DNA of 64,000 bases from Candidatus Krumholzibacteriota bacterium (GTDB lineage: Bacteria; Krumholzibacteriota; Krumholzibacteriia; LZORAL124-64-63), in NCBI GenBank assembly GCA_024277025.1, contig JAJRWA010000018.1:56-64055 (forward strand), read 5' to 3'. Below the pieces are notes generated by a model. The model saw only the letters and a list, made by a program, of their open reading frames with translations. It was not told the origin of the DNA and searched no databases. A program made the position numbers and the translations under genes. This document shows positions 3,014 through 11,622 of the stretch, piece by piece. Numbering within the stretch: the first letter of the stretch is position 1; each line of letters begins with the position of its first letter.

Positions 3014-3586
3014 CTACCAGTAGTAGGAGATGCCCGCCTGGGGCACGACCTTGATATCACCGCTCTTGCCCAGATGCGCAAAATCGGCCTCGATCTTCCA
3101 GGCCCAGCGGCGTCCCTGCAGGTACTCGATGCCCACGCCACCGCCCACATTCCAGTTCTCGTTCAGATCAAAGACATCCTGGCCGCCGCTGGCGCCCGTC
3201 AATTCCTTGTGGTAGAAGTAGCCGGCCCCGGCGTTGATGAACATGCGCAGCCTTTGGTCCTGCCGCAGTATATAGTTCAGGTTGAAACCCAGATTGTGCT
3301 GCTGGTTGTCACTGGTGTGCCAGACACCACCGGCCACCTGGAGGTACAGCCACCAGCGCAACGGTACTCGGAACGATAAACCGTGCCCGCCAAGCTGGCC
3401 GTAGTGCAGGCCGATGGCCCCCTGCAGCGGGTCGCCGGCGCTGTTCCAGTCGGGCGTGGCCGTCGCCTGGGCTCCCGCCCCGGTCGGGACCAGGCAGGCC
3501 AGTACCACCAGGGCGGCCAAGACAAATCGGGCAATGAATGAGGTTGTCGGATAGCGGTAGCGCAACATGGCTCCATCCTTCGACAC
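3014..3586 (-). CDS. Putative outer-membrane beta-barrel protein
   Basis: Signal-peptide-like N-terminus, alternating amphipathic strands (NVGGGVGIEY, QAGISYYW), terminal aromatic residue. Start uncertain. Confidence 0.6.
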   Translation of the reverse strand: MSKDGAMLRYRYPTTSFIARFVLAALVVLACLVPTGAGAQATATPDWNSAGDPLQGAIGLHYGQLGGHGLSFRVPLRWWLYLQVAGGVWHTSDNQQHNLGFNLNYILRQDQRLRMFINAGAGYFYHKELTGASGGQDVFDLNENWNVGGGVGIEYLQGRRWAWKIEADFAHLGKSGDIKVVPQAGISYYW

Positions 3587-3645: not shown

Positions 3646-4284
3646 TTATGGCGCCGCCCCCTGCCGGGACTGGATATCGGTCACCTGATAGCCCGCATTT
3701 TCCACCGCCTGCCGCAGCAAATCCTCGTCCAGATCGTCGGCAACCCTGACCACGGCCTGCCCGCTTTCGTAATCCACATCCGACACCGCCACGCCGTCGA
3801 CGGCCGCCAACCGCTTGCTCAGGTTGACTTCACAGCCGGCGCAGGTCATCCCCTCGATGCCGAGGACTACGTCGTGACCCGTGGCCGGCATCGGGTTCTC
3901 TGGTGGGACCAGGACACCCACATAGTTGGGGAAAAAGGCGAACGCCAAAGTCATCACGGTCGCGACAGCCAGCAGGCCGAGATTGAACGTGCGCAACGAG
4001 AAGCCACGCTGCCGCCGGGGCGGGCAGCAATCCGCACCGTCAGTTGCACGCGCAGCGCCGGAAACAGCCGGCCGCAAGGTAAAATACCAGCCCAAGGCCA
4101 GCAGGACAAACGTGACGGGCAGCAGCACCGGCCGCCAGGCCTCGAATCTGGCCGCCGCCACGCCGCCGGAAAAACCGAACAGCAGCAGCAACAGGGGCAG
4201 CCAGCAGCAGGCCGATGAGACAACCGCTACTGCGACCGCGCCAAGCGCCGCCAGGGTTCCCTTTCGCCCCTCATTTCCCATCAT
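3646..4284 (-). CDS. MerT/MerF-like transporter fused to HMA (MerP-like) domain
   Basis: TM1 with SSACCWLP, three TMs, loop DCC pair, C-terminal IEGMTCAGC. Overlaps the upstream gene stop. Confidence 0.85.
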   Translation of the reverse strand: MMGNEGRKGTLAALGAVAVAVVSSACCWLPLLLLLFGFSGGVAAARFEAWRPVLLPVTFVLLALGWYFTLRPAVSGAARATDGADCCPPRRQRGFSLRTFNLGLLAVATVMTLAFAFFPNYVGVLVPPENPMPATGHDVVLGIEGMTCAGCEVNLSKRLAAVDGVAVSDVDYESGQAVVRVADDLDEDLLRQAVENAGYQVTDIQSRQGAAP

Positions 4285-4786
4285 CGGCCTCGTTCTCTTC
4301 AACGCCACAGCAAGCTGTATCGGCGACCTGGGCGAAAGGCTGCGCTGGTGCCGGCGCCCTTTTCCCCTTCGCGGCCTGCACCACTTGATTCACGTTGCCC
4401 AGACAGCACGCCCCCTGCGGATTCTTCTCTTCGCAGCGGTCGAGCCCCTGCTTGCACTTGCCGGCAATTTCGGCCGGGATATCAGAGTGTCCCTGCCGAC
4501 TGACGTCAGCTTCGAATTCGGCCGCGTCATGCCCGAAGCAATAACAGATCGGCCGCGGGTCGACGGTTTCCTTCATGCCGACGCGCACCTTGAGCTCACT
4601 CTTGTCGACTACTTCACCGGTTTCCGGCTGGTACCAGACCACAGCGCAGTCGGCGGTCGGGCAATAGTGGAACCCCTCCCGGACCGTCAACCGGGCCAGC
4701 ACTTCGCTGCGGGCCAGACTCGTGACAGTCAGTGGTTTGAGGCGCCGGCCTTTGGCCTGGCAAACGGGACAGAGCGGGGTGCTCAT
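4271..4786 (-). CDS. CopZ N-terminal-like Zn/[2Fe-2S] putative metallochaperone
   Basis: CPVC...YCPTADCAVVWY...PICYCFG...CEEKNPQGACCLGNV. ATG at 4786 directly after the merR-like stop. Confidence 0.8.
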   Translation of the reverse strand: MSTPLCPVCQAKGRRLKPLTVTSLARSEVLARLTVREGFHYCPTADCAVVWYQPETGEVVDKSELKVRVGMKETVDPRPICYCFGHDAAEFEADVSRQGHSDIPAEIAGKCKQGLDRCEEKNPQGACCLGNVNQVVQAAKGKRAPAPAQPFAQVADTACCGVEENEADDGK

Positions 4787-4787
4787 T

Positions 4788-5237
4788 TCACTGCTCCTCG
4801 ATTCGGTCCAGGGACAACGATTCCGCATCGACGAAGTTGCCCGCCAGCAGGGAGTCCAACAGCTGGCACTCTCCCGCCGAACGCCCGGCCCGGCAGGTGC
4901 CGGCCAGATCCTGCAGAGCCTCCCGCATCCGGGTCAGGGCCGACAGTCGAACCTCGATATCCGCGATCCTGGCCAGTGCGATCTCCTTGATCTCCAGGCA
5001 CGACGCCGCGGCATCGACCCGCAAAAAAAGCAGCTCACGTATGTCGGCCAGGGAGAAACCCAGGGCTTTGGCGTGCCGGATGAAGGCAATCCTGGCCACC
5101 GCCTCGGGCTGGTACATGCGGTAGCCGGACCGGTTGCGGGGCGGCGCGGGAATCAGGGACTCCCGCTCATAGAAACGCAGTGTCTCGATGCCGACGCCCG
5201 TCTGGCGCGACACCTGGCCGATGGTCATGCCCTCCAT
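4788..5237 (-). CDS. MerR-family heavy-metal-responsive regulator
   Basis: MTIGQVS...ETLRFYERESLI...RNRSGYRMY...ALGFSLADIRELL HTH. Three Cys (ASC, GTC-x8-C) in the pattern of the divalent-metal MerR/CadR/PbrR group. Confidence 0.93.
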   Translation of the reverse strand: MEGMTIGQVSRQTGVGIETLRFYERESLIPAPPRNRSGYRMYQPEAVARIAFIRHAKALGFSLADIRELLFLRVDAAASCLEIKEIALARIADIEVRLSALTRMREALQDLAGTCRAGRSAGECQLLDSLLAGNFVDAESLSLDRIEEQ

Positions 5238-5260
5238 GGGTGCTCCTCTGGTTGATTGTC

Positions 5261-5291
5261 AGTATAAGGCTGTACCTTGGTACAGGGTCAA
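5261..5291 (-). promoter_or_regulatory. MerR-type sigma70 promoter/operator with 19-bp spacer
   Basis: Minus strand reads TTGACC-19 bp-TATACT. The spacer holds the perfect dyad CTGTACC-AA-GGTACAG (5270-5285). Confidence 0.92.
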
Positions 5292-5389
5292 GCGCGCGAC
5301 GGGAATTCGGCCCAATTGGCCCGCGGGCGGGAACAATTTCCGAGCATTACGGTTGGGTTTTGTTGGCTCCCCACGAAAGGAAGGTTCTC

Positions 5390-6016
5390 ATGCGCATTGG
5401 GCTACTGATGGCTCTTTTCAGTCTGTTTCCCCTGGCCGGCCTGTCCGCGCCTTCGGCGGCTGCGACGGACGAGGGGGCATTCGCCGAGTTCGTCTCACCC
5501 GCCGACTCCCTGCCTCAGTTGCGGTATTTTGCCGACGGGCTGATCTCACTCAACGATCGCTGTCCCGTGCGCAAGGTGCGCCTGAATCCCCGGATGGGCG
5601 CAGCTTATGTCAATGGCCGACCGGTGGGCTTCTGCTGACGCCCGTGCGCCGCGACCTTCGTGCAAGGTCCTGAAATCTGGCTCACGCAGTTGGGGATCGA
5701 ACTGAACTGTGCGGTTGACCCGGCCCAGCCCGCTATTCTGGACGCCGATCACCGCATTTTCGTCAACTACGAGACCTACTATGTATCCAGCCTGGCAGCC
5801 CGCGACGAGTTTCGGCACGAGCCCTGGCGTTACGCGGGAATCGTGACCGATCCAATCAGCCGCGAGCGGTTCCAACCGACGGAGGCCTCACCGCGGACCC
5901 AGTGCGCGGGACGCGAATTCATCTTCACTTCACAGCGGAACGCAGCGCGTTTTCAGGCCGCGCCTGACCAATACGCCACACCCGTGGTGCCGTATGCCGG
6001 CCACATGGCGCAATAG
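5390..6016 (+). CDS. Candidate secreted selenoprotein with three YHS/TRASH-like repeats (208 aa, Sec83 at TGA 5636-5638)
   Basis: RBS AAGGAAGG, ATG 5390, signal peptide. ORFs 5180..5638 and 5660..6016 are in the same frame, and readthrough gives CPV...GFC-U-RPCAATFVQGPEIW, matching YHS FCCxxCxxxFxxxP. Confidence 0.8.
5636..5669 (+). promoter_or_regulatory. Bacterial SECIS-like element
   Basis: UGA, 14 nt, then stem GACCTT (5653-5658), loop CGTGC, AAGGTC (5664-5669). The loop starts after 20 intervening nt and has G at position 2 followed by U. Confidence 0.65.
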
Positions 6017-6099
6017 CCCCGCAGACGGTTGTTGGTTCACGCGCCCCGACGACAAGGCCCCGGCCCAGACAGGGACCGGGGCCTATTCCGTCAACGGGG
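6017..6099. terminator. Structured spacer or bidirectional terminator between convergent genes
   Basis: Inner hairpin AGGCCCCGG...CCGGGGCCT (6055-6084). Outer pairing CCCCGcaGACGG with CCGTCaaCGGGG. No clear U-tract. Confidence 0.5.
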
Positions 6100-6106
6100 G
6101 ACTGCC

Positions 6107-9100
6107 CTAGTCGGTCCTGGCCAGCGCCCGCCGACTCAGAAACCACTTGTACAGCGCCGGCAGAACCACCAGCGTCAGCACCGTCGAACTGACCAGCCCG
6201 CCGATCACCACGGTGGCCAGGGGCTTTTGCACCTCACTGCCGGTCCCGTGGGAAAACAGCAAAGGCAGCAAACCAAGCGCCGTCGTGATCGCCGTCATCA
6301 GCACGGCCCGCAACCGCAGACAGGCGCCCTGGATCGAGGCCTCGCGCACACTCACCCCGTCGGCAACCAGTTGGTTCATGTAGGTGATCAGCACCATGCC
6401 GTTTTCCAGCGCGATGCCGAACAGGGCGATGAAACCGATCGAGGCCGGCACCGACATGTTCATCTTGGCCAGCCACAACGCCACGACGCCGCCGACCAGG
6501 GCCAACGGGATGTTGATCAGGATCAGCATGCTGTTGCGCACCGAGCCGAAATTGCCGAACAAGAGCAGGAACAGGAACATCAGCACCACCGGCACGACAA
6601 ACTTCATGCGCTTGCTGGCCTCCTGCTGCAGACGGAACTGCCCGCCCCAGGTCGTCAGGTAGCCGGCCGGCAGCGTGACCTGCTCGGCCAACTCCGCCTG
6701 CGCATCGGCGACGAACGAACCGATGTCCCGCCCCACGACGTTGCATTGGATGGTGATGAAGCGCTGATTGTCCTCGCGCGTTATTTGGCGCAGGCCGACG
6801 ATCTCCTCGACCGTCGTCAGCTCAGCCAGCGGTACTTTCGCCCCACCGGGCGCCGTAATCAGGATGTCCTTGATCGCAGCCGCCGTGTCGCGAGCCTCAG
6901 GGACGAAGCGCACCAGGATATCGAAGCGCCGGATACCCTCGAAGACCTGACCGGCCACTTCGCCACCAACTGCGGCCCGCACAACGGACTGCACATCAGC
7001 CACGTTCAGGCCGTAGCGGGCAATGGCCTCACGGTCGATCCGGATCACCAACTGCGGCGCGCCGGAGACCTGGTCCACCTGCACGTCAGCCGCGCCCTCA
7101 ACCTCGCGGATGACCGCAGCCACCGCCTCGGCACTGTCCTTCAGGGTCTCCATGTCATCGCCAAAGACCTTGATCGCCAGTTCGGCCCGCACACCTTCGA
7201 GCAACTCGTCGACCGTCATGGCGATCGGCTGGGTGAGGTTCACCAGCACGCCCGGCACATTGCCGATCGACTCGCGAATCATCTCCTCGATGCCGGCCTG
7301 ACCCTTCTTGGTCCGCCACTGGTCCTCGGGCTGCAGAATGATGTATATCTCGGCGCTGTTGACGGGGTCGGTATGGGCCCCGACCTCGCCACGGCCGATC
7401 CGGCTGACGACTTCCTTCACTTCCGGAATCGCCATCAACCGCCGCTCGACAATGGCCGAGACCCGCTCGCTCTCGGTCATGGCGATCGACGGCGACATGG
7501 TCAGCCGCACGACGATCGTGCCTTCCTGCAGGCGCGGCGTGAACTCCGAACCGAGGCGGGGCGCGATGGCGCCGCCAATCACCAACAGCACGACAGCCAC
7601 CACCACGGCGGCCCACCGGTTGTCCACGAAGAAACGGGCCGCCGGCTTATAGGCTCCGATCAGCAGCCGCTGCATCCGGTTCTCGCCCTGCTTCTTGCCC
7701 GCCTTGGGCAACCGCATGAAGACGCTGCTGAGCATGGGGGCGATGCCGATGGCAAAGATCAGGGAGCCCAGCATGGCCAGGGCCACGGTGTAGGCCAGCG
7801 GCCGGAAGGTCTTGCCCTCGACACCCTGCAGCGTGAACAGGGGCACAAAGACCAGGATGATGATGCCGATGGCGAACAGGATCGGCCGCGCCACCTCGCG
7901 ACAGGCCGCCGAGATCACCTTCAGCTTGTGGCTGCCGGGTTCCGCCCCGCGCAGATGCCGGTCCACGTTCTCGATCATCACGATCGTGCCGTCGACCATC
8001 ATGCCGATGGCGATGGCGAGCCCGCCGAGGGACATCAGATTGGCCGTCATGCCCAGCTGTTTCATGGCCAGGAAGGCGAACAGCACCGAGAACGGCAGCG
8101 AGAGAGCCACCACGATGCTGGGCCGCACCCCGCCCATGAAGATCAGCAGCACCAGCGCCACCAGCAGCACGCCCTGCAGCAGGGCATCGGTCACCGTCCG
8201 CACCGCCGCCTGCACGAGTGTCTTCTGCTCGTAGTAGGGCACGATGTTCAGGCCCTCGGGCAGGATCTCGTTGATCTCCGCCAGCTTCTCCTCCACCCGC
8301 GCAATCACGGCTGAACTGTTGGTCCCGAAGAGCTTGATCACCTGTCCGGCCACCACCTCGCCGGTGCCGTTGCGCGACTGCATGCCGCGTCGCACGGCGC
8401 CACCGATCTTGACGTCGGCCAGGTCGCCGAGGAAAGTCGGCCGCCCGTCCTCGGTCCGGATCACGATGTCCCGCAGGTCATCCATGTCCCGGGCCAGACC
8501 GATTGATCTGACGACGAATTCCTCCGAGTTCTTCTCGATGAACTGGGCGCCCACGTTCAGATTGTTGGCACGCACCCGCTCGATCACCTCGCCGAGGGTC
8601 ACTCCGTAGCGCAGCAACTGCTCGGGGTGGACTTCGATGTGGAACTGCTTCTCGTAACCGCCGATCCCCAGCACCTCGGTCACACCGGGCACGGTCTGCA
8701 GATTGAACTTGATCAACCAGTCCTGGATCGAACGCAGCTCTTCGAGCGAATACTGTCCGGTCGTATCCTCGAGGTAGTAGAAGAGCACCAGCCCCATGCC
8801 GGTGGAGATCGGCCCCATGGCCGGATCGCCGAAGCCGTCGGGAATCTCCTCCCGGGCCTCCTGCAACCGTTCGCCAACCAACTGGCGGGCGAAGTAGATG
8901 TCCATCCCGTCTTCGAAATAGATGTTCACCACCGACAACCCGAAGTTGGAGACCGAACGCACCTTCACCACCCGCGGCAGACCGGTCATCGCCGCCTCGA
9001 CCGGATAGGTCACATACTTTTCGATTTCCTCGGGGGCCAGCCCGCTGGTCACGGTAAAGACCTGGACCAGATTGGGGGACACGTCCGGAAACGCATCGAC

Positions 9101-9205
9101 CGGCAGCTTGGTGTAGGCCTGATAGCCCGCACCCATCATCAACACGGCGGCCACGGCAATCATCAGGCGATTGCGCAGACCGAATTCGACTATTTTGTCC
9201 AACAT
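6107..9205 (-). CDS. czcA: CusA/CzcA-family heavy-metal RND efflux permease
   Basis: 1032 aa; LPVDAFPDVS, NLMSLGGLAIAIGMMVDGTIVMIEN, RLRAVLMTAITT, GSEVQKPLATVVIGG. Metal specificity not determinable. Confidence 0.95.
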   Translation of the reverse strand: MLDKIVEFGLRNRLMIAVAAVLMMGAGYQAYTKLPVDAFPDVSPNLVQVFTVTSGLAPEEIEKYVTYPVEAAMTGLPRVVKVRSVSNFGLSVVNIYFEDGMDIYFARQLVGERLQEAREEIPDGFGDPAMGPISTGMGLVLFYYLEDTTGQYSLEELRSIQDWLIKFNLQTVPGVTEVLGIGGYEKQFHIEVHPEQLLRYGVTLGEVIERVRANNLNVGAQFIEKNSEEFVVRSIGLARDMDDLRDIVIRTEDGRPTFLGDLADVKIGGAVRRGMQSRNGTGEVVAGQVIKLFGTNSSAVIARVEEKLAEINEILPEGLNIVPYYEQKTLVQAAVRTVTDALLQGVLLVALVLLIFMGGVRPSIVVALSLPFSVLFAFLAMKQLGMTANLMSLGGLAIAIGMMVDGTIVMIENVDRHLRGAEPGSHKLKVISAACREVARPILFAIGIIILVFVPLFTLQGVEGKTFRPLAYTVALAMLGSLIFAIGIAPMLSSVFMRLPKAGKKQGENRMQRLLIGAYKPAARFFVDNRWAAVVVAVVLLVIGGAIAPRLGSEFTPRLQEGTIVVRLTMSPSIAMTESERVSAIVERRLMAIPEVKEVVSRIGRGEVGAHTDPVNSAEIYIILQPEDQWRTKKGQAGIEEMIRESIGNVPGVLVNLTQPIAMTVDELLEGVRAELAIKVFGDDMETLKDSAEAVAAVIREVEGAADVQVDQVSGAPQLVIRIDREAIARYGLNVADVQSVVRAAVGGEVAGQVFEGIRRFDILVRFVPEARDTAAAIKDILITAPGGAKVPLAELTTVEEIVGLRQITREDNQRFITIQCNVVGRDIGSFVADAQAELAEQVTLPAGYLTTWGGQFRLQQEASKRMKFVVPVVLMFLFLLLFGNFGSVRNSMLILINIPLALVGGVVALWLAKMNMSVPASIGFIALFGIALENGMVLITYMNQLVADGVSVREASIQGACLRLRAVLMTAITTALGLLPLLFSHGTGSEVQKPLATVVIGGLVSSTVLTLVVLPALYKWFLSRRALARTD

Positions 9206-9217
9206 GCAACTCGCCTC

Positions 9218-10204
9218 CTAGTGTCCGTGGCCTTCGCCGAATGAGTCCTTGCCCAGTTCCGCCTTGATCGTGAAGCCGCCGGTGGCGACGTACTCGTCAC
9301 CCGGCTCCAGACCGGAGCGAATCTCCATTTCCAACTTGCCCCTGCGCCCGATCTCAACCGGGCGCGGCTCAAAGCCCTCGTCGTCGACCACGAACACCAC
9401 ATCCTCGCCTTCGATCGTATGGACCGCCGTGGCCGGCACGACCACCGATACCGCAAACGATCCCGTCACGACTTCGGCCGTGGCGAACATGCCCGGTCGC
9501 CAGTGTCCGTCCGTGTTGTCGACGACCAGGCGCGCCGTCGCCGTGCGGGTGTGCTCATCGACTACGGGTGTCACGTAGGTGATCTTGCCCGAAACGGCGA
9601 AGCCATCGGCCCGCGCGCGCACCGTAACGTCCTCACCCACCCGGATGCGATCGATGTCGCGTTGATAGACGGTGATATCGATCCAGACCGAACTCAGGTC
9701 CACCACGGTGAAACCGAATTCCGTGCGGGTGACCGGCTCGCCGCGGGTCATGTGCTTATCGATAACGGTCCCGGCGAGGAAGGTCGTCACTTCGTAGGGA
9801 GCCAGGCTGCCGTCGCTCTCGATGACAGCCAGCACTTCACCCGCCTGCACGTGATCCCCGATATTCGCCAACACCTTGGTGACGATGCCCTCATAACGCG
9901 GCACAATGTGCGCCACCAGGTCCTCGTTGAACCGCACCTCGGCCGGCAACGTGCGCGTCTGGCGCACCGTCCCGGGCCCGGCCACGGCCAGACCGATCTC
10001 GAATTCCCGGATTTCTTCAGCACTCAACTGCACCACGCCTTCATGATGCTCGCCTTCTTCGCCGTGCTCCGACTCGTTGCCGTGGTCATCCGGCTCGCTG
10101 TAGGCTGCGGGCGCGGTGACCAGCGGCAGGGCCAGCCCCAAAGCCAGCAGGAACGCGGCACGCCCAACGATGGTCTTGATAGGATTGCGCATCATGTCAG
10201 TCAT
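9218..10204 (-). CDS. czcB: RND periplasmic adaptor (CzcB/CusB-like) with His-rich N-terminus
   Basis: DDHGNESEHGEEGEHHE, biotinyl-lipoyl-like half motifs, TRTATARL, WRPGMFA, C-terminal GHGH. Start 10204 overlaps the TolC stop. Confidence 0.9.
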   Translation of the reverse strand: MTDMMRNPIKTIVGRAAFLLALGLALPLVTAPAAYSEPDDHGNESEHGEEGEHHEGVVQLSAEEIREFEIGLAVAGPGTVRQTRTLPAEVRFNEDLVAHIVPRYEGIVTKVLANIGDHVQAGEVLAVIESDGSLAPYEVTTFLAGTVIDKHMTRGEPVTRTEFGFTVVDLSSVWIDITVYQRDIDRIRVGEDVTVRARADGFAVSGKITYVTPVVDEHTRTATARLVVDNTDGHWRPGMFATAEVVTGSFAVSVVVPATAVHTIEGEDVVFVVDDEGFEPRPVEIGRRGKLEMEIRSGLEPGDEYVATGGFTIKAELGKDSFGEGHGH

Positions 10205-11519
10205 TCTCCTGGGAAAGAGGGGATTCGATGGGTGTGCCGCCCAGCAGCAACTCGACGGCGACCGCCGCCTCCTGGTAGCGGGCCAGTTCGGCCGTGTAGG
10301 CCCCGCGGGCCTCGAACCAGGTGCGGCGCACGGCCAGCACATCAGTCAGGGTAAAAAGACCCTTGCGGTAGGCCTGATCCATATCCGTGACGGCCTGCTC
10401 GGCCAGAGGCAGAATCTCGTCACGCAGGGTGATTACCTGCCCGTGGGCGGTGACCAGCTGTTCATATTCGCGGGCCAGGGCACTGCGCAGGGCCACGAAC
10501 TCGGCTTGCCGCTCGGCATCCAGGCGGGTCAGACCGAACTCGGCGGCTCGCCGCCCGTCCTGGTTCTTGTTGCGCACCGGCAGCGGTATGGAAATGGACG
10601 CCACGGCTGCGTTTTCACCATTGTCCTGGTAGTGCCGGATGCCGGCCGCCGCCGTCAGATCAATCTTGCCCAGGGCAGCTTCTGCGGCCACTTCAGCCCG
10701 GCGCCGATTGGCTTCCAGGTCCCACCGTTTGAGTCGCGGACTGCCCGGCAGTCGGGCGCTCAGTTCCGCCCAGGACGGAGCTGCCGGCACAGCCTCCAGA
10801 TCACCGACGACATCGCCGAAGCTGGCTTCAGCGCTGCCCCACAGGGCTGCAAGCTGGATTCTGGCTGCAGCCAATGTGCGCCGGGCGGTTGCCGCGGCAA
10901 GACGGGCCGTCGCCACGGCGATCCGTGTACGGCTGGCTTCGACCTCGGACGCGGTTCCCGTCCGCATCCGGCGCTCGGTGAACTCCAGATCCTTGGTCGC
11001 CAGGTTGACCATCTCGTTGGCCAGTTCGACCTCGATCTGGGCCGCCAATGCGGCCAGGAAGGCCCGGGTTGTCTCGGTGCGCAGGGCCCGGGCACCGAGT
11101 TCAGCGTCCAGACGAACCAGATCAGCCTGCCAGGCGGCGGCTTCCCTGGCCCGAGCCCGCTTGCCGCCCAGCTCAAAAGTCTGCGACAGGGCCAGAGTGA
11201 GTTCAGCCGCGTCGAAGCCACTGTAGGCGCCCGAGCCGATGAAGTTCTCCGCCTCGAACGACAGCTCGGGGTTCAGCCCCCGTCCGGCCTGGTCTGCCCG
11301 GGCCTGAGCTTCAGCCGTGGCCGCAGCATAGCCCTGCAGGGACGGATTGTACCGCAAGGCCAGTTCAACGGCCCGTTCCAGGGTCAGGCTCTGGCCTGCC
11401 AGGTTCGGCGCCGGGGATGGGTCCGCCGACGCAGTCGCCAGTACCGGGCTGACAACGGTCAGGGCCACGAGCAGCCAGCCAAGCCGGCACAAACCCGCAG
11501 ATATCGATTGGGTTGTCAT
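10197..11519 (-). CDS. czcC: TolC/CzcC-family outer-membrane efflux protein
   Basis: LTLERAVELALRYNPSL, NPELSFEAEN, LSQTFELGGKRRAR, AYRKGLFTLTDVL. Confidence 0.92.
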   Translation of the reverse strand: MTTQSISAGLCRLGWLLVALTVVSPVLATASADPSPAPNLAGQSLTLERAVELALRYNPSLQGYAAATAEAQARADQAGRGLNPELSFEAENFIGSGAYSGFDAAELTLALSQTFELGGKRARAREAAAWQADLVRLDAELGARALRTETTRAFLAALAAQIEVELANEMVNLATKDLEFTERRMRTGTASEVEASRTRIAVATARLAAATARRTLAAARIQLAALWGSAEASFGDVVGDLEAVPAAPSWAELSARLPGSPRLKRWDLEANRRRAEVAAEAALGKIDLTAAAGIRHYQDNGENAAVASISIPLPVRNKNQDGRRAAEFGLTRLDAERQAEFVALRSALAREYEQLVTAHGQVITLRDEILPLAEQAVTDMDQAYRKGLFTLTDVLAVRRTWFEARGAYTAELARYQEAAVAVELLLGGTPIESPLSQEND

Positions 11520-11622
11520 CAATTCACCTCGTCGTGGGTAGTAGTTGGACCGGACCGGTGCGCGCGCGCCAGCGGACGCACCCGTCAACCAGTCATCAGA
11601 GATATCCAGGCAGGAATCAGGC

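What the first reader, a model, noticed from the sequence alone, without database searches (positions are those of the whole stretch)
5390..6016. Hidden secreted selenoprotein candidate (C-U-x-x-C, three YHS-like repeats) inside a heavy-metal locus
Seen: two annotated ORFs are one reading frame broken only by TGA 5636-5638, in GGC TTC TGC TGA CGC CCG TGC. Readthrough gives NDRCPV...VGFC-U-RPCAATFVQGPEIW, placing the UGA on the second Cys of the YHS/TRASH FCCxxC motif. Two more Cys-poor YHS-like repeats follow (YYVSSLAARDEFRHEPWRY and DPIS...FIFTSQRNAARFQAAPDQY). A SECIS-like hairpin follows the UGA. The gene is divergent from the MerR operon and convergent on czcA. Known: selenolate binds soft metals such as Hg very tightly, and some YHS-domain selenoproteins have been reported, so family novelty needs checking. 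Inference: a periplasmic Sec-based metal chaperone or sponge. Caveat: no selA/B/C/D lies in this window, and two other genes here have apparent indels.
Basis: partly seen in the sequence, partly recalled or inferred. Interest (0 to 1): 0.85.

Follow-up and report, generated by a model that had tools for sequence, protein, structure and literature searches.

The report
Uncatalogued secreted YHS-domain selenoprotein family
The two short ORFs are one gene for an exported protein whose in-frame TGA encodes selenocysteine inside a cysteine-rich, metal-site-like motif, and it belongs to a widespread family that selenoprotein catalogues and gene callers appear to miss.

Summary
ORF 5390-6016 (+) is one frame, broken only by TGA 5636-5638 (residue 83).

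Evidence that it is a real selenoprotein gene:
- The genome has selA, selB, selD and one tRNA-Sec. TGA is otherwise an ordinary stop.
- In 80 species-level loci from at least eight phyla, the same column is TGA in 69 and TGC/TGT in 11.
- Protein conservation runs across the codon (GFC-U-x-P-C).
- A 6-bp hairpin with a CGUGC loop starts 14 nt after the UGA. It pairs in 418 of 420 cells in TGA forms and 41 of 66 in Cys forms, with compensatory changes at four pairs.

The protein has a signal peptide and three YHS/TRASH-like modules. Only the first carries the invariant C58, C82, U83 and C86.

It is not the known YHS selenoprotein NF041384: it scores 19 bits against a cut-off of 70, and the Sec sits elsewhere. 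I found it in no catalogue I could read.

Public records hold it as truncated 'hypothetical' or 'YHS domain' fragments.

Binding of a thiophilic metal at a Cys3Sec site is inferred, not shown. The MerR/Czc neighbourhood is not conserved (0 of 80 loci).

I put Sec decoding at about 0.93 and the metal-binding role at about 0.55-0.6.

The parts
5376..5383 (+). Shine-Dalgarno-like AAGGAAGG, 6 nt before the ATG
   Evidence: Read from the sequence. Not tested.
5390..6016 (+). Selenoprotein gene: 208 codons plus a TAG stop, with one in-frame UGA
   Evidence: Orthologues with the same in-frame TGA.
5390..5464 (+). Probable Sec-type signal peptide (about residues 1-25, MRIGLLMALFSLFPLAGLSAPSAAA). Several orthologues instead have a lipobox-like L-x-x-C.
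   Evidence: Read by eye from the translations. No signal-peptide predictor was run.
5519..5692 (+). Module 1 (residues 44-101): YHS/TRASH-like, with invariant C58, C82, U83, C86 and N55, R61, Y73-V74-N75, G80-F81, P85, F90, P94
   Evidence: Alignments A1 and A3 (mean column identity 73%). In the Cys homologue P0018 the best Pfam YHS stretch is this module, and in the distant P0094 and P0153 it scores as YHS and TRASH. The AF2 model gives strand-strand-helix-helix here.
5636..5638 (+). UGA read as selenocysteine (U83)
   Evidence: Same column is TGA in 69 of 80 loci, TGC in 10 and TGT in 1. All 11 sequences of A1 have it. TGA is an ordinary stop elsewhere in the window.
5653..5669 (+). bSECIS-type hairpin: 6-bp stem (5653-5658 with 5664-5669) and loop CGUGC (5659-5663). 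The loop starts 20 nt after the UGA.
   Evidence: 418 of 420 cells pair, with compensatory changes at 4 of 6 pairs. Cys forms pair in only 41 of 66 cells.
5693..5836 (+). Module 2 (residues 102-149): Cys-poor, with the same strand-strand-helix-helix pattern. Invariant N126, E128, F141, P145; near-invariant D118, H121.
   Evidence: Pfam does not recognise it. hhalign against module 1 gave nothing.
5837..5989 (+). Module 3 (residues 150-200): Cys-less YHS domain. The Pfam match covers residues 153-198, which is 5846-5983.
   Evidence: 39.5 bits, cut-off 30.3. All 11 of 11 orthologues match YHS.
6055..6084 (.). Inverted repeat (12-nt arms, 92% complementary, 6-nt loop) between this gene and the convergent pump gene; terminator-like
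   Evidence: The terminator scan did not list it because it lacks a T-run.
5261..5291 (-). MerR-type promoter on the minus strand: -35 TTGACC (5291-5286), a 19-nt spacer holding the dyad CTGTACC-N2-GGTACAG (5270-5285), and -10 TATACT (5266-5261). It faces the merR operon, not the selenoprotein gene.
   Evidence: Dyad. Hexamers read by eye. The sigma-70 scan with 16-18-nt spacers found none.
4788..5237 (-). Neighbour: MerR-family metal-responsive regulator, divergent
   Evidence: Best scores are to ZntR, MerR, CadR/PbrR and CueR models, all below their cut-offs, so the metal specificity is open.
6107..9205 (-). Neighbour: CusA/CzcA-family heavy-metal RND pump, convergent. An adaptor (9218-10342) and an outer-membrane factor (10197-11588) lie upstream of it.
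   Evidence: TIGR00914, 1100 bits against a cut-off of 701; IhpB- and IhpA-like hits are below cut-off.

Best explanation
Window 5390-6016 is one gene for an exported selenoprotein of about 180 mature residues.

Decoding (shown by comparison). During translation, SelB with Sec-tRNA(Sec) recognises a small hairpin that starts 14 nt after UGA 5636-5638. The hairpin has a 6-bp stem and a CGUGC loop. Selenocysteine is inserted at residue 83.

Architecture (shown). The protein is a signal peptide followed by three YHS/TRASH-like strand-strand-helix-helix modules. Only the first keeps ligand-type residues: C58 on the first knuckle and C82-U83-x-x-C86 at the start of the helix.

Function (inferred). 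This Cys3Sec cluster binds a thiophilic metal ion in the periplasm, such as Cu(I), Hg(II), Cd(II) or Zn(II). The vicinal Cys-Sec pair gives tighter or faster binding than the Cys-Cys pair of the minority Cys forms. The two Cys-less modules would act as scaffold or docking surface. The protein works as a stand-alone periplasmic metal binder or carrier, not as a fixed part of the neighbouring MerR or Czc systems.

My odds: Sec decoding about 0.93; metal binding at the Cys3Sec site about 0.55-0.6. The overall figure below is set by the weaker step.
For: Sec machinery:
- selD at 363.9 bits (cut-off 125), itself with one in-frame TGA.
- selA at 436 bits.
- selB at 332.6 bits.
- One tRNA-SeC with anticodon tca.

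TGA is a normal stop here. 13 of 26 non-overlapping frames of at least 300 aa end on TGA, as do the merR, zf_CopZ and MFS genes.

Conservation of the UGA:
- 13 of 61 genomes matched. The 11 near-full-length matches all carry the TGA in the same column, GFC-U-[RSTM]-PC, at 37-60% identity to the window protein.
- In 80 named MAG loci the column is TGA in 69, TGC in 10 and TGT in 1.
- P85, C86 and F90 are invariant, yet they would lie between the two 'genes' if TGA were a stop.

Sec/Cys alternation:
- Of 29 longer homologues fetched, 24 have Cys, 3 Ser, 1 Arg and 1 Asn at the column.
- On a tree of the 80 loci the Cys state needs at least 5 changes, and Cys forms are sisters of Sec forms with support such as 100/96.

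Hairpin:
- 418 of 420 cells pair in the 6-bp stem.
- Pair types are GC 49/AU 20; UA 37/CG 25/UG 8; CG 65/UA 4; GC 67/CG 2.
- With two weak outer pairs included, the covariation score is 0.315 against 0.194 shuffled (0 of 500 shuffles reach it). Slid controls reach at most 0.123.
- Pair 25-39 couples the first base of codon 89 to the wobble base of codon 93.
- Cys forms pair in 41 of 66 cells.
- The loop has G at position 2 followed by U, and the UGA-to-loop spacing is 20 nt. Both fit the bSECIS model quoted in PMC13188914, section 5.

Domain type:
- Pfam YHS on module 3.
- Module 1 scores as YHS in the Cys homologue P0018, and as YHS plus TRASH in P0094 and P0153.
- The AF2 model (pLDDT 82.4, pTM 0.75) shows three like modules.

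Vicinal 'CU' motifs recur in predicted metal and organometal selenoproteins in Table 1 of PMC13188914: SaoL, SaoC, HgcA, MbdU and the CopZ-N-terminal family.
Against: - There is no experimental evidence of Se incorporation or of metal binding.
- A single-sequence fold is unremarkable. The 50-nt MFE is -12.4 kcal/mol with z-score 0.00, and 92 of 200 shuffles fold at least as well.
- The bare 6-bp hairpin is only -5.3 to -6.4 kcal/mol. That is weaker than the -7.5 limit of the bSECIS model.
- Pfam does not call module 1 of the window protein. Module 1 against module 3 by hhalign gives E 0.0072 and probability 5%.
- No PDB fold match has E <= 0.001.
- The first knuckle has one Cys, not the two of a classical TRASH site.
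- Metal-gene context is absent from all 80 related loci. The commonest neighbours there are housekeeping genes: mnmG in 12 of 80, mnmE in 11, and parA and parB in 7 each.
- The 69:11 ratio may be inflated. One of the two scan patterns encodes FV[QK][GD]P, which overlaps the hairpin.
- UxxC is also a classical redox motif.
Confidence: 0.6

Rival explanations
1. It is a genuine selenoprotein, but the site is redox-active rather than metal-carrying. U83-x-x-C86 (with C82 or C58 as resolving thiols) would cycle through a selenenylsulfide and act as a periplasmic oxidoreductase on a YHS-like scaffold. Possible substrates are disulfides, peroxides or chalcogen oxyanions.
For: - UxxC is the commonest Sec motif among the 119 families in Table 1 of PMC13188914, and the authors say most uncharacterised families probably serve redox roles.
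- Sec is strongly preferred over Cys (69 of 80 loci), as is typical of catalytic sites.
- There is no conserved metal-gene context.
- Some distant YHS-repeat relatives are fused to a cytochrome c domain: P0086 and P0143 carry PSCyt1.
Against: - The scaffold is YHS/TRASH, not a thioredoxin-type fold.
- Four invariant S/Se residues spaced like a knuckle-plus-helix metal site (C-x23-C-U-x2-C) suit coordination.
- Vicinal CU motifs in the catalogue are mostly ascribed to metal or organometal binding.
- No reductase partner is conserved nearby.
Confidence: 0.25
2. The protein would be a dedicated component of the adjacent MerR-regulated or Czc heavy-metal resistance system, for example a periplasmic Hg/Cd/Zn chaperone feeding MerT-HMA or the RND pump.
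For: In this genome the gene lies between a merR / CopZ-N-terminal-like / MerT-HMA operon and a CusA/CzcA-family pump operon. The 152-bp divergent intergenic region holds a MerR-type dyad.
Against: - tblastn with eight window neighbours (MFS, OMP-like, MerT-HMA, zf_CopZ, MerR, CzcA, CzcB, CzcC) found 0 hits in 80 related loci at E <= 1e-6. The positive control gave 81 hit lines.
- Even the closest Krumholzibacteria loci have different neighbours.
- The MerR-type -35/-10 pair with a 19-nt spacer faces the minus-strand operon (by eye).
- No MerA reaches the family cut-off in the genome: best 290 bits against 454, at 90.7% completeness.
Confidence: 0.1
3. It is not a selenoprotein. TGA 5636-5638 would be a true stop (two small genes), a nonsense mutation or pseudogene, or an assembly error.
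For: Gene callers split it. The database holds only fragments of 116-127 aa. In one search, 9 rows end at profile position 87, just before the UGA column, and many others begin at positions 89-130. The single-sequence hairpin energy is not significant.
Against: - The same TGA occurs in 69 of 80 independent species-level assemblies plus 10 relatives.
- Invariant residues lie immediately after it.
- Homologues with Cys at the column are contiguous proteins.
- The hairpin shows covariation.
- A 260-nt Logan contig of run X1 covers 5443-5702 with no difference. It probably comes from the source sample, so it is not independent.
Confidence: 0.03

Closest known systems
NCBIfam NF041384, 'YHS domain-containing (seleno)protein' (Zhang & Gladyshev 2007, Olavius symbionts, PMC1976440; listed with motif GxU in PMC13188914 Table 1)
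   Same: Both are bacterial selenoprotein/Cys-protein families that contain a Cys-less YHS domain. 8 of 11 orthologues give a weak sub-threshold hit to it through that domain (best E 1.6e-5).
   Different: - The window protein scores 19 bits against a cut-off of 70, and only over residues 170-197, which is module 3 and not the Sec region.
- The model finds nothing in this genome at E <= 0.01.
- It finds nothing at E <= 1e-5 in G002 and G004, which carry TGA orthologues.
- A true member (L111, 136 bits) is a protein of about 113 positions. Its Cys/Sec site (…GGFCAYG…) lies after a single YHS domain, not inside an FC-U-xxC knuckle.
Pfam YHS (PF04945) and TRASH-type metal-binding domains (Arc_trans_TRASH PF08394, TRASH_HVO_1752_C PF24273)
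   Same: - Module 3 is a bona fide YHS match.
- Module 1 has the F-C-x-x-x-C-x3-F-x3-P-x-[YW] half of the YHS pattern. Its counterparts in Cys homologues score as YHS or TRASH.
- Weak partial fold matches go to the C-terminal part of methane and toluene monooxygenase hydroxylases (E about 0.2-1). I recall these carry a YHS-like region.
   Different: - A selenocysteine sits next to the first Cys of the second knuckle.
- The first knuckle has one Cys, whereas the TRASH consensus C-x2-C-x19-22-C-x3-C has two (consensus recalled, not from a call).
- The protein is a secreted three-module array in which two modules have lost all ligands.
'CU'-motif metal/organometal selenoproteins (SaoL, SaoC, SaoB, HgcA, MbdU NF045648, Csac_0668 CopZ-N-terminal family NF045877), as listed in PMC13188914 Table 1
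   Same: They share a vicinal Cys-Sec pair proposed as a soft-metal or organometal ligand. A Cys-Cys version of one of them lies next door in the window: NF047645, 100.2 bits against a cut-off of 100.
   Different: None of these models hits the window protein at E <= 1. The fold and architecture differ. The original papers (Haft & Gwadz 2023; Haft & Tolstoy 2025) were not held, so I know these families only from the review's table.
NosL-type periplasmic Cu(I) chaperone lipoproteins
   Same: Both are small exported proteins, often lipoproteins, thought to bind a soft metal on a TRASH-related fold (clan relation recalled). A distant YHS-repeat relative, P0132, also matches Pfam NosL (2e-10).
   Different: The window protein has no NosL match. 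The NosL structure 7og7 appears only at E 1.0 and probability 0.08. No nos genes were seen nearby.

Membership tests
Bacterial selenoprotein gene (SelB/bSECIS-dependent) | In-frame UGA conserved in orthologues, with protein conservation on both sides | tested here: met
   11 of 11 orthologues and 69 of 80 loci carry it. P85, C86 and F90 are invariant just after the UGA.
Bacterial selenoprotein gene (SelB/bSECIS-dependent) | Homologues with Cys at the Sec position | tested here: met
   11 of 80 loci have TGC or TGT. 24 of 29 fetched longer homologues have Cys. The Cys state needs at least 5 changes on the tree.
Bacterial selenoprotein gene (SelB/bSECIS-dependent) | bSECIS geometry: apical loop 3-9 nt, upper stem 4-16 bp, G in the first two loop positions, 16-37 nt from UGA to loop (PMC13188914, section 5) | tested here: met
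   The loop is 5 nt (CGUGC), the stem 6 bp and the spacing 20 nt. Covariation is seen at 4 of 6 pairs.
Bacterial selenoprotein gene (SelB/bSECIS-dependent) | bSECIS stability: MFE <= -7.5 kcal/mol | tested here: inconclusive
   The core hairpin is -5.3 to -6.4 kcal/mol. The 50-nt MFE is -12.4 kcal/mol, but the z-score against shuffles is 0.00.
Bacterial selenoprotein gene (SelB/bSECIS-dependent) | selA, selB, selD and tRNA-Sec present in the genome | tested here: met
   all above cut-off; tRNA-SeC, tca.
Bacterial selenoprotein gene (SelB/bSECIS-dependent) | Selenium demonstrated in the protein | not testable with these tools
   This needs 75Se labelling or mass spectrometry.
NF041384 YHS_seleno_dom | Score at or above the curated cut-off (70 bits) | tested here: not met
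   19 bits. The best among 11 orthologues is E 1.6e-5. There was no genome hit.
NF041384 YHS_seleno_dom | Sec/Cys in the G-x-U site downstream of a single YHS domain | tested here: not met
   A true member reads …QFGGFCAYG… after the YHS domain. Here the Sec lies inside module 1, in FC-U-xxC.
Pfam YHS (PF04945) | Gathering score of 30.3 bits | tested here: met
   39.5 bits on residues 153-198. 11 of 11 orthologues match.
Pfam YHS / TRASH, for the Sec-bearing module 1 | Recognisable YHS/TRASH profile match or fold | tested here: inconclusive
   No Pfam hit on module 1 of the window protein. Support is transitive, through P0018, P0094 and P0153. hhalign of module 1 against module 3 gave E 0.0072 and probability 5%. 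The secondary-structure pattern is alike.
TRASH metal site (C-x2-C ... C-x3-C; consensus recalled) | Two Cys on each knuckle | tested here: not met
   The first knuckle has only C58 (N-D-R-C-P-V-R). The second has C82-x3-C86 plus U83.
mer / czc heavy-metal resistance operon component | Conserved linkage to merR, merT, merA or czcABC | tested here: not met
   0 of 80 loci. No MerA above cut-off in the genome.
MbdU and other CU-motif metal selenoprotein models in NCBIfam | A match to the family model | tested here: not met
   The only NCBIfam hit at E <= 1 is NF041384.

The most novel reading that the evidence does not exclude
This would be the founding description of a widespread, uncatalogued selenoprotein family found in Krumholzibacteriota, Latescibacterota, Eisenbacteria, Zixibacteria, Acidobacteriota, Gemmatimonadota, Planctomycetota and others. 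In it, selenocysteine is a direct ligand in a YHS/TRASH knuckle-type metal site (Cys3Sec). That would be the first Sec built into this class of small metal-binding fold. The protein would serve as a housekeeping periplasmic carrier or buffer for a thiophilic metal, not as a resistance-island accessory. Sec would be the ancestral and preferred state, with repeated reversions to Cys.
Probability: 0.45. Interest if true: 0.7.

Novelty: new member of a known kind. Interest (0 to 1): 0.58.

Why it matters
The gene is mis-annotated wherever I looked. Sec forms are stored as 116-127-aa fragments named 'hypothetical protein' or 'YHS domain-containing protein'.

A correct model would repair annotation in many MAGs of poorly known phyla. 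It would also add a family to the prokaryotic selenoproteome, which stands at 119 families in the 2026 review.

Biochemically it offers a small, soluble, natural Cys3Sec site with natural Cys4 counterparts. That is a clean system for asking what selenium adds to metal coordination or exchange in the periplasm.

The very short, coding-embedded SECIS has clear covariation. It is a useful training case for SECIS predictors, which rely on energy thresholds that this hairpin barely meets.

Tried and rejected
- PDB fold search: 0 matches with E <= 0.001. The best are partial hits to monooxygenase hydroxylases at E about 0.2.
- PDB sequence-profile search with module 1: 3 chance-level hits, E 0.61-2.9.
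- hhalign of module 1 against module 2: E 0.11 over one column.
- Conserved-neighbour analysis: 655 crude ORFs from 80 loci were clustered. The ORF picker is crude for GC-rich DNA, and cluster 1 is an antisense shadow of the target. No partner is shared by more than 12 of 80 loci, and those are mnmG, mnmE, parA, parB, an S8 peptidase and a beta-helix protein.
- tblastn of the window's metal genes against the loci: 0 hits.
- Sigma-70 promoter scan (16-18-nt spacers): 0 sites. The terminator scan gave 1 site inside the signal-peptide coding part, no more than shuffles give.
- Single-sequence fold of the UGA-downstream 50 nt: z-score 0.00.
- Sequencing runs: no RNA holder listed. Contigs of X1 cover 5300-5702 and 5753-5903; the rest has no cover. 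X2 and X3 contigs (about 89% alike over 5547-5680) list no difference at 5636-5638. Not all of their 14 differences are itemised, so this proves little. Of the 11 itemised places, 9 are third codon positions.
- MerA: no match above cut-off.
- Papers not held: Haft & Gwadz 2023 and Haft & Tolstoy 2025.
- Supplements of the surveys are closed. Candidate lists there could contain this family, for example those of Deng et al. 2026, cited in the review.
- Literature searches: 'TRASH domain' + 'selenocysteine' gave 0 papers. 'YHS domain' + 'selenoprotein' gave 4 papers, all referring to the NF041384-type family. Krumholzibacter/Latescibacter + selenoprotein terms gave nothing relevant among the 15 listed. 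'YHS domain' + periplasmic + copper gave 2 papers, neither relevant by listing.
Full report
OBSERVATION

The sequence reads GGC TTC TGC TGA CGC CCG TGC, with TGA at 5636-5638. ORFs 5180..5638 and 5660..6016 share one frame. From the ATG at 5390, which follows AAGGAAGG, the frame runs 208 codons to TAG 6014-6016 with that single TGA at residue 83.

IS THE UGA DECODED AS SELENOCYSTEINE?

The window lies in a 3.82-Mb assembly of 276 contigs, 90.7% complete.

Sec machinery is present elsewhere in the genome:
- selD scores 363.9 bits against a cut-off of 125, and itself has one in-frame TGA.
- selA scores 436 bits.
- selB scores 332.6 bits.
- There is one tRNA-SeC with anticodon tca.

TGA is otherwise an ordinary stop. 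13 of 26 non-overlapping frames of at least 300 aa in the window end on TGA. The merR, zf_CopZ and MFS genes end on TGA and have none inside.

A six-frame search of 61 genomes (G000 included) found 13 with a match.
- The 11 near-full-length matches span three families of one class and all have an in-frame TGA.
- The other two matches are short partial hits without stops.
- After orienting the loci, all 11 read GFC-U-[RSTM]-PC in the same column. Identity to the window protein is 37-60%.
- Invariant residues lie on both sides: N55, C58, R61, Y73, V74, N75, G80, F81, C82, then P85, C86, F90, P94.

A pattern scan of one genome per species returned 148 stretches. Of these, 124 were confirmed as relatives and the best 80 were kept. 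They are MAGs labelled Krumholzibacteria, Latescibacteria, Eisenbacteria, Zixibacteria, Acidobacteriota, Gemmatimonadota, Planctomycetota, Verrucomicrobiota, Ignavibacteriales and others. The codon in the Sec column is TGA in 69, TGC in 10 and TGT in 1. One caveat applies: one of the two scan patterns encodes FV[QK][GD]P, which overlaps the hairpin, so the 69:11 ratio may be biased.

An exhaustive profile search of 1.84 billion representative proteins gave 1592 hits at E <= 0.001 and 58 at E <= 1e-30.
- Most of the top hits are short proteins. Many begin at profile positions 89-130, and nine rows end at position 87, just before the UGA column. This is what gene callers produce when they stop at the UGA.
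- Of the 29 longer proteins I fetched, 24 have Cys at the column, 3 Ser, 1 Arg and 1 Asn.

On a maximum-likelihood tree of the 80 loci, the Cys state needs at least five changes. Cys forms are sisters of Sec forms with good support, for example L091/L095 at 100/96 and L102+L109 against L103+L105 at 100/99.

THE HAIRPIN

Fourteen nucleotides after the UGA lies GACCUU-CGUGC-AAGGUC (5653-5669).

I aligned 70 TGA-type sequences without gaps. RNAalifold predicts exactly this 6-bp stem.
- 418 of 420 cells form standard pairs.
- Four pairs show double changes: GC 49/AU 20; UA 37/CG 25/UG 8; CG 65/UA 4; GC 67/CG 2.
- With two weak outer pairs included, the covariation score is 0.315 against 0.194 in column shuffles (0 of 500 reach it). 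Slid partners reach at most 0.123.
- Pair 25-39 links the first base of codon 89 to the wobble base of codon 93. Pair 24-40 fixes the wobble base of codon 88. Protein-level selection cannot explain either.
- The 11 Cys-type loci pair in only 41 of 66 cells, and their peptide there is relaxed (FSFDP, FSMNP, FLKNP).

Loop size, stem length, G-U at loop positions 2-3 and the 20-nt spacing fit the bacterial SECIS model quoted in the 2026 review (section 5 read).

Evidence against: the window's own 50 nt fold no better than shuffles (-12.4 kcal/mol, z 0.00). The bare stem-loop is only -5.3 to -6.4 kcal/mol. The case for a SECIS therefore rests on comparison, not on thermodynamics.

THE PROTEIN

The N-terminus looks like a signal peptide. 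Several orthologues have a lipobox-like L-x-x-C instead (by eye). No predictor was available.

- Pfam finds YHS on residues 153-198 (E 5.6e-10), and in all 11 orthologues.
- The AlphaFold2 model built on the 11-sequence alignment has pLDDT 82.4 and pTM 0.75. It shows three consecutive strand-strand-helix-helix modules.
- Module 1, which carries the Sec, is the best conserved: 73% mean column identity against 57% and 60% for the other two.
- Pfam does not call module 1 in the window protein.
- In the Cys homologue P0018, however, the best YHS stretch is module 1. In the more distant three-module proteins P0094 and P0153, the FCCxxC modules score as YHS and as TRASH.
- hhalign puts FC-C-xx-C of module 1 over F-[TS]-S-xxx of module 3, but weakly (E 0.0072, probability 5%).
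- No solved structure matches significantly.

Together with C58, C82 and C86 it gives four invariant S/Se side chains.

CONTEXT

In the window the gene is flanked as follows:
- A MerR-family regulator. Its best scores are to ZntR, MerR, CadR and CueR models, all below cut-off.
- A CopZ-N-terminal 'CC' metallochaperone-like protein (NF047645, 100.2 bits, cut-off 100).
- A MerT-HMA fusion.
- On the other side, a CusA/CzcA-family RND pump with its adaptor and outer-membrane factor.

The intergenic region has a perfect 7-2-7 dyad. By eye it sits in a 19-nt spacer between TTGACC and TATACT on the minus strand. This MerR-type promoter drives the merR operon, not this gene.

None of the window's eight neighbour proteins has a homologue in any of the 80 related loci, although the positive control worked. 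Even the nearest Krumholzibacteria have different neighbours. The commonest neighbours elsewhere are mnmG (12 of 80), mnmE (11), parA and parB (7 each), an S8 peptidase and a beta-helix protein. No MerA reaches its cut-off in the genome.

The gene therefore behaves as a stand-alone unit. Its position in a metal locus here is not evidence of function.

MECHANISM

Shown by comparison:
- SelB/SECIS-dependent insertion of Sec at residue 83.
- A three-module YHS-type architecture with a single C…C-U-x-x-C cluster.

Inferred:
- Export to the periplasm.
- Coordination of a thiophilic metal by the Cys3Sec cluster.
- A carrier or buffer role.

The main rival is a redox-active U-x-x-C selenenylsulfide. 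Without biochemistry I cannot exclude it.

COMPARISON WITH WHAT IS KNOWN

The only YHS selenoprotein in the literature I could read is the Olavius-symbiont family. I saw passages of PMC1976440, PMC2398784 and PMC9312934, and Table 1 of PMC13188914. It corresponds to NCBIfam NF041384 with motif GxU.

The window protein fails that model (19 against 70 bits). The model finds nothing in this genome. It also finds nothing in relatives that carry TGA orthologues, while it does find true members elsewhere in the phylum (5 of 151 genomes over cut-off). One such member has its Cys in …GGFCAYG… after a single YHS domain.

None of the 119 families or subfamilies in the review's table has a CUxxC site in a YHS/TRASH module. 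No other NCBIfam model (release of June 2026) hits the protein.

Public names for family members are 'hypothetical protein' or 'YHS domain-containing protein'.

I could not read Haft & Gwadz 2023 or Haft & Tolstoy 2025, nor any supplements. Novelty is therefore probable, not certain.

VERDICT

This is a real, conserved selenoprotein gene that annotation splits in two. It is a new family (or subfamily, by the review's criteria) within the known kind of bacterial, SECIS-dependent, metal-site-type selenoproteins. Function is inferred. Interest is moderate to high for selenium and metal-homeostasis specialists. The mechanism of recoding itself is standard.

Noticed in passing
G000:C82, locus L006 position 1528: The genome's selD has an in-frame TGA (…KSAG-U-AAKL…). 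SelD is therefore itself a selenoprotein here, as in many Sec users.
   Followed up: partly
G000:C40:13272-14651 (L122): A pyridine-nucleotide-disulfide oxidoreductase homologue has one in-frame TGA. It scores 288 bits to the MerA model, below the cut-off. It may be another selenoprotein of this genome.
   Followed up: no
window 4271-4828 (-): The neighbour is a CopZ-N-terminal 'CC' putative Fe-S metallochaperone (NF047645, 100.2 bits against a cut-off of 100; Pfam zf_CopZ). It is the Cys-Cys counterpart of the 'CU' Csac_0668 selenoprotein family, NF045877 (72.8 bits, below cut-off). By eye, its likely start (M15, ATG 4786-4784) lies one base after the merR stop, which suggests translational coupling.
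   Followed up: partly
window 3646-4308 (-): This is a MerT-like membrane protein fused to an HMA domain. It is weakly similar to MerTP (93.7 against 180 bits) and to the MerT/CopZ fusion-like selenoprotein model NF045683 (53.2 against 375 bits). Here it is an all-Cys form.
   Followed up: no
window 5261-5291 (-): A MerR-type promoter architecture lies on the minus strand, facing merR. It has a 19-nt spacer containing the perfect dyad CTGTACC-N2-GGTACAG. The dyad is confirmed; the hexamers were read by eye.
   Followed up: partly
window 6055-6084: A GC-rich inverted repeat (12-nt arms, 92% complementary) lies between the convergent selenoprotein and RND-pump genes. It is probably a shared terminator without a T-run.
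   Followed up: partly
loci L038, L039, L045 and others (12 of 80): In Latescibacteria-like genomes the orthologue sits downstream of mnmE-mnmG and upstream of a beta-helix protein and parA-parB. This is an origin-region type of housekeeping neighbourhood.
   Followed up: partly
proteins P0086, P0143: Distant relatives fuse four to five YHS/TRASH modules to a planctomycete cytochrome c domain (PSCyt1) and leucine-rich repeats. This hints that such modules also work in periplasmic electron-transfer or sensing proteins.
   Followed up: no
window 3014-3586 (-): A 190-aa ORF with a signal-peptide-like start has no Pfam family. Its only hit is a weak one to the gliding-motility lipoprotein model CglE (27.9 against 70 bits). 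It lies between the MerT-HMA gene and an Atg22-like MFS transporter.
   Followed up: no
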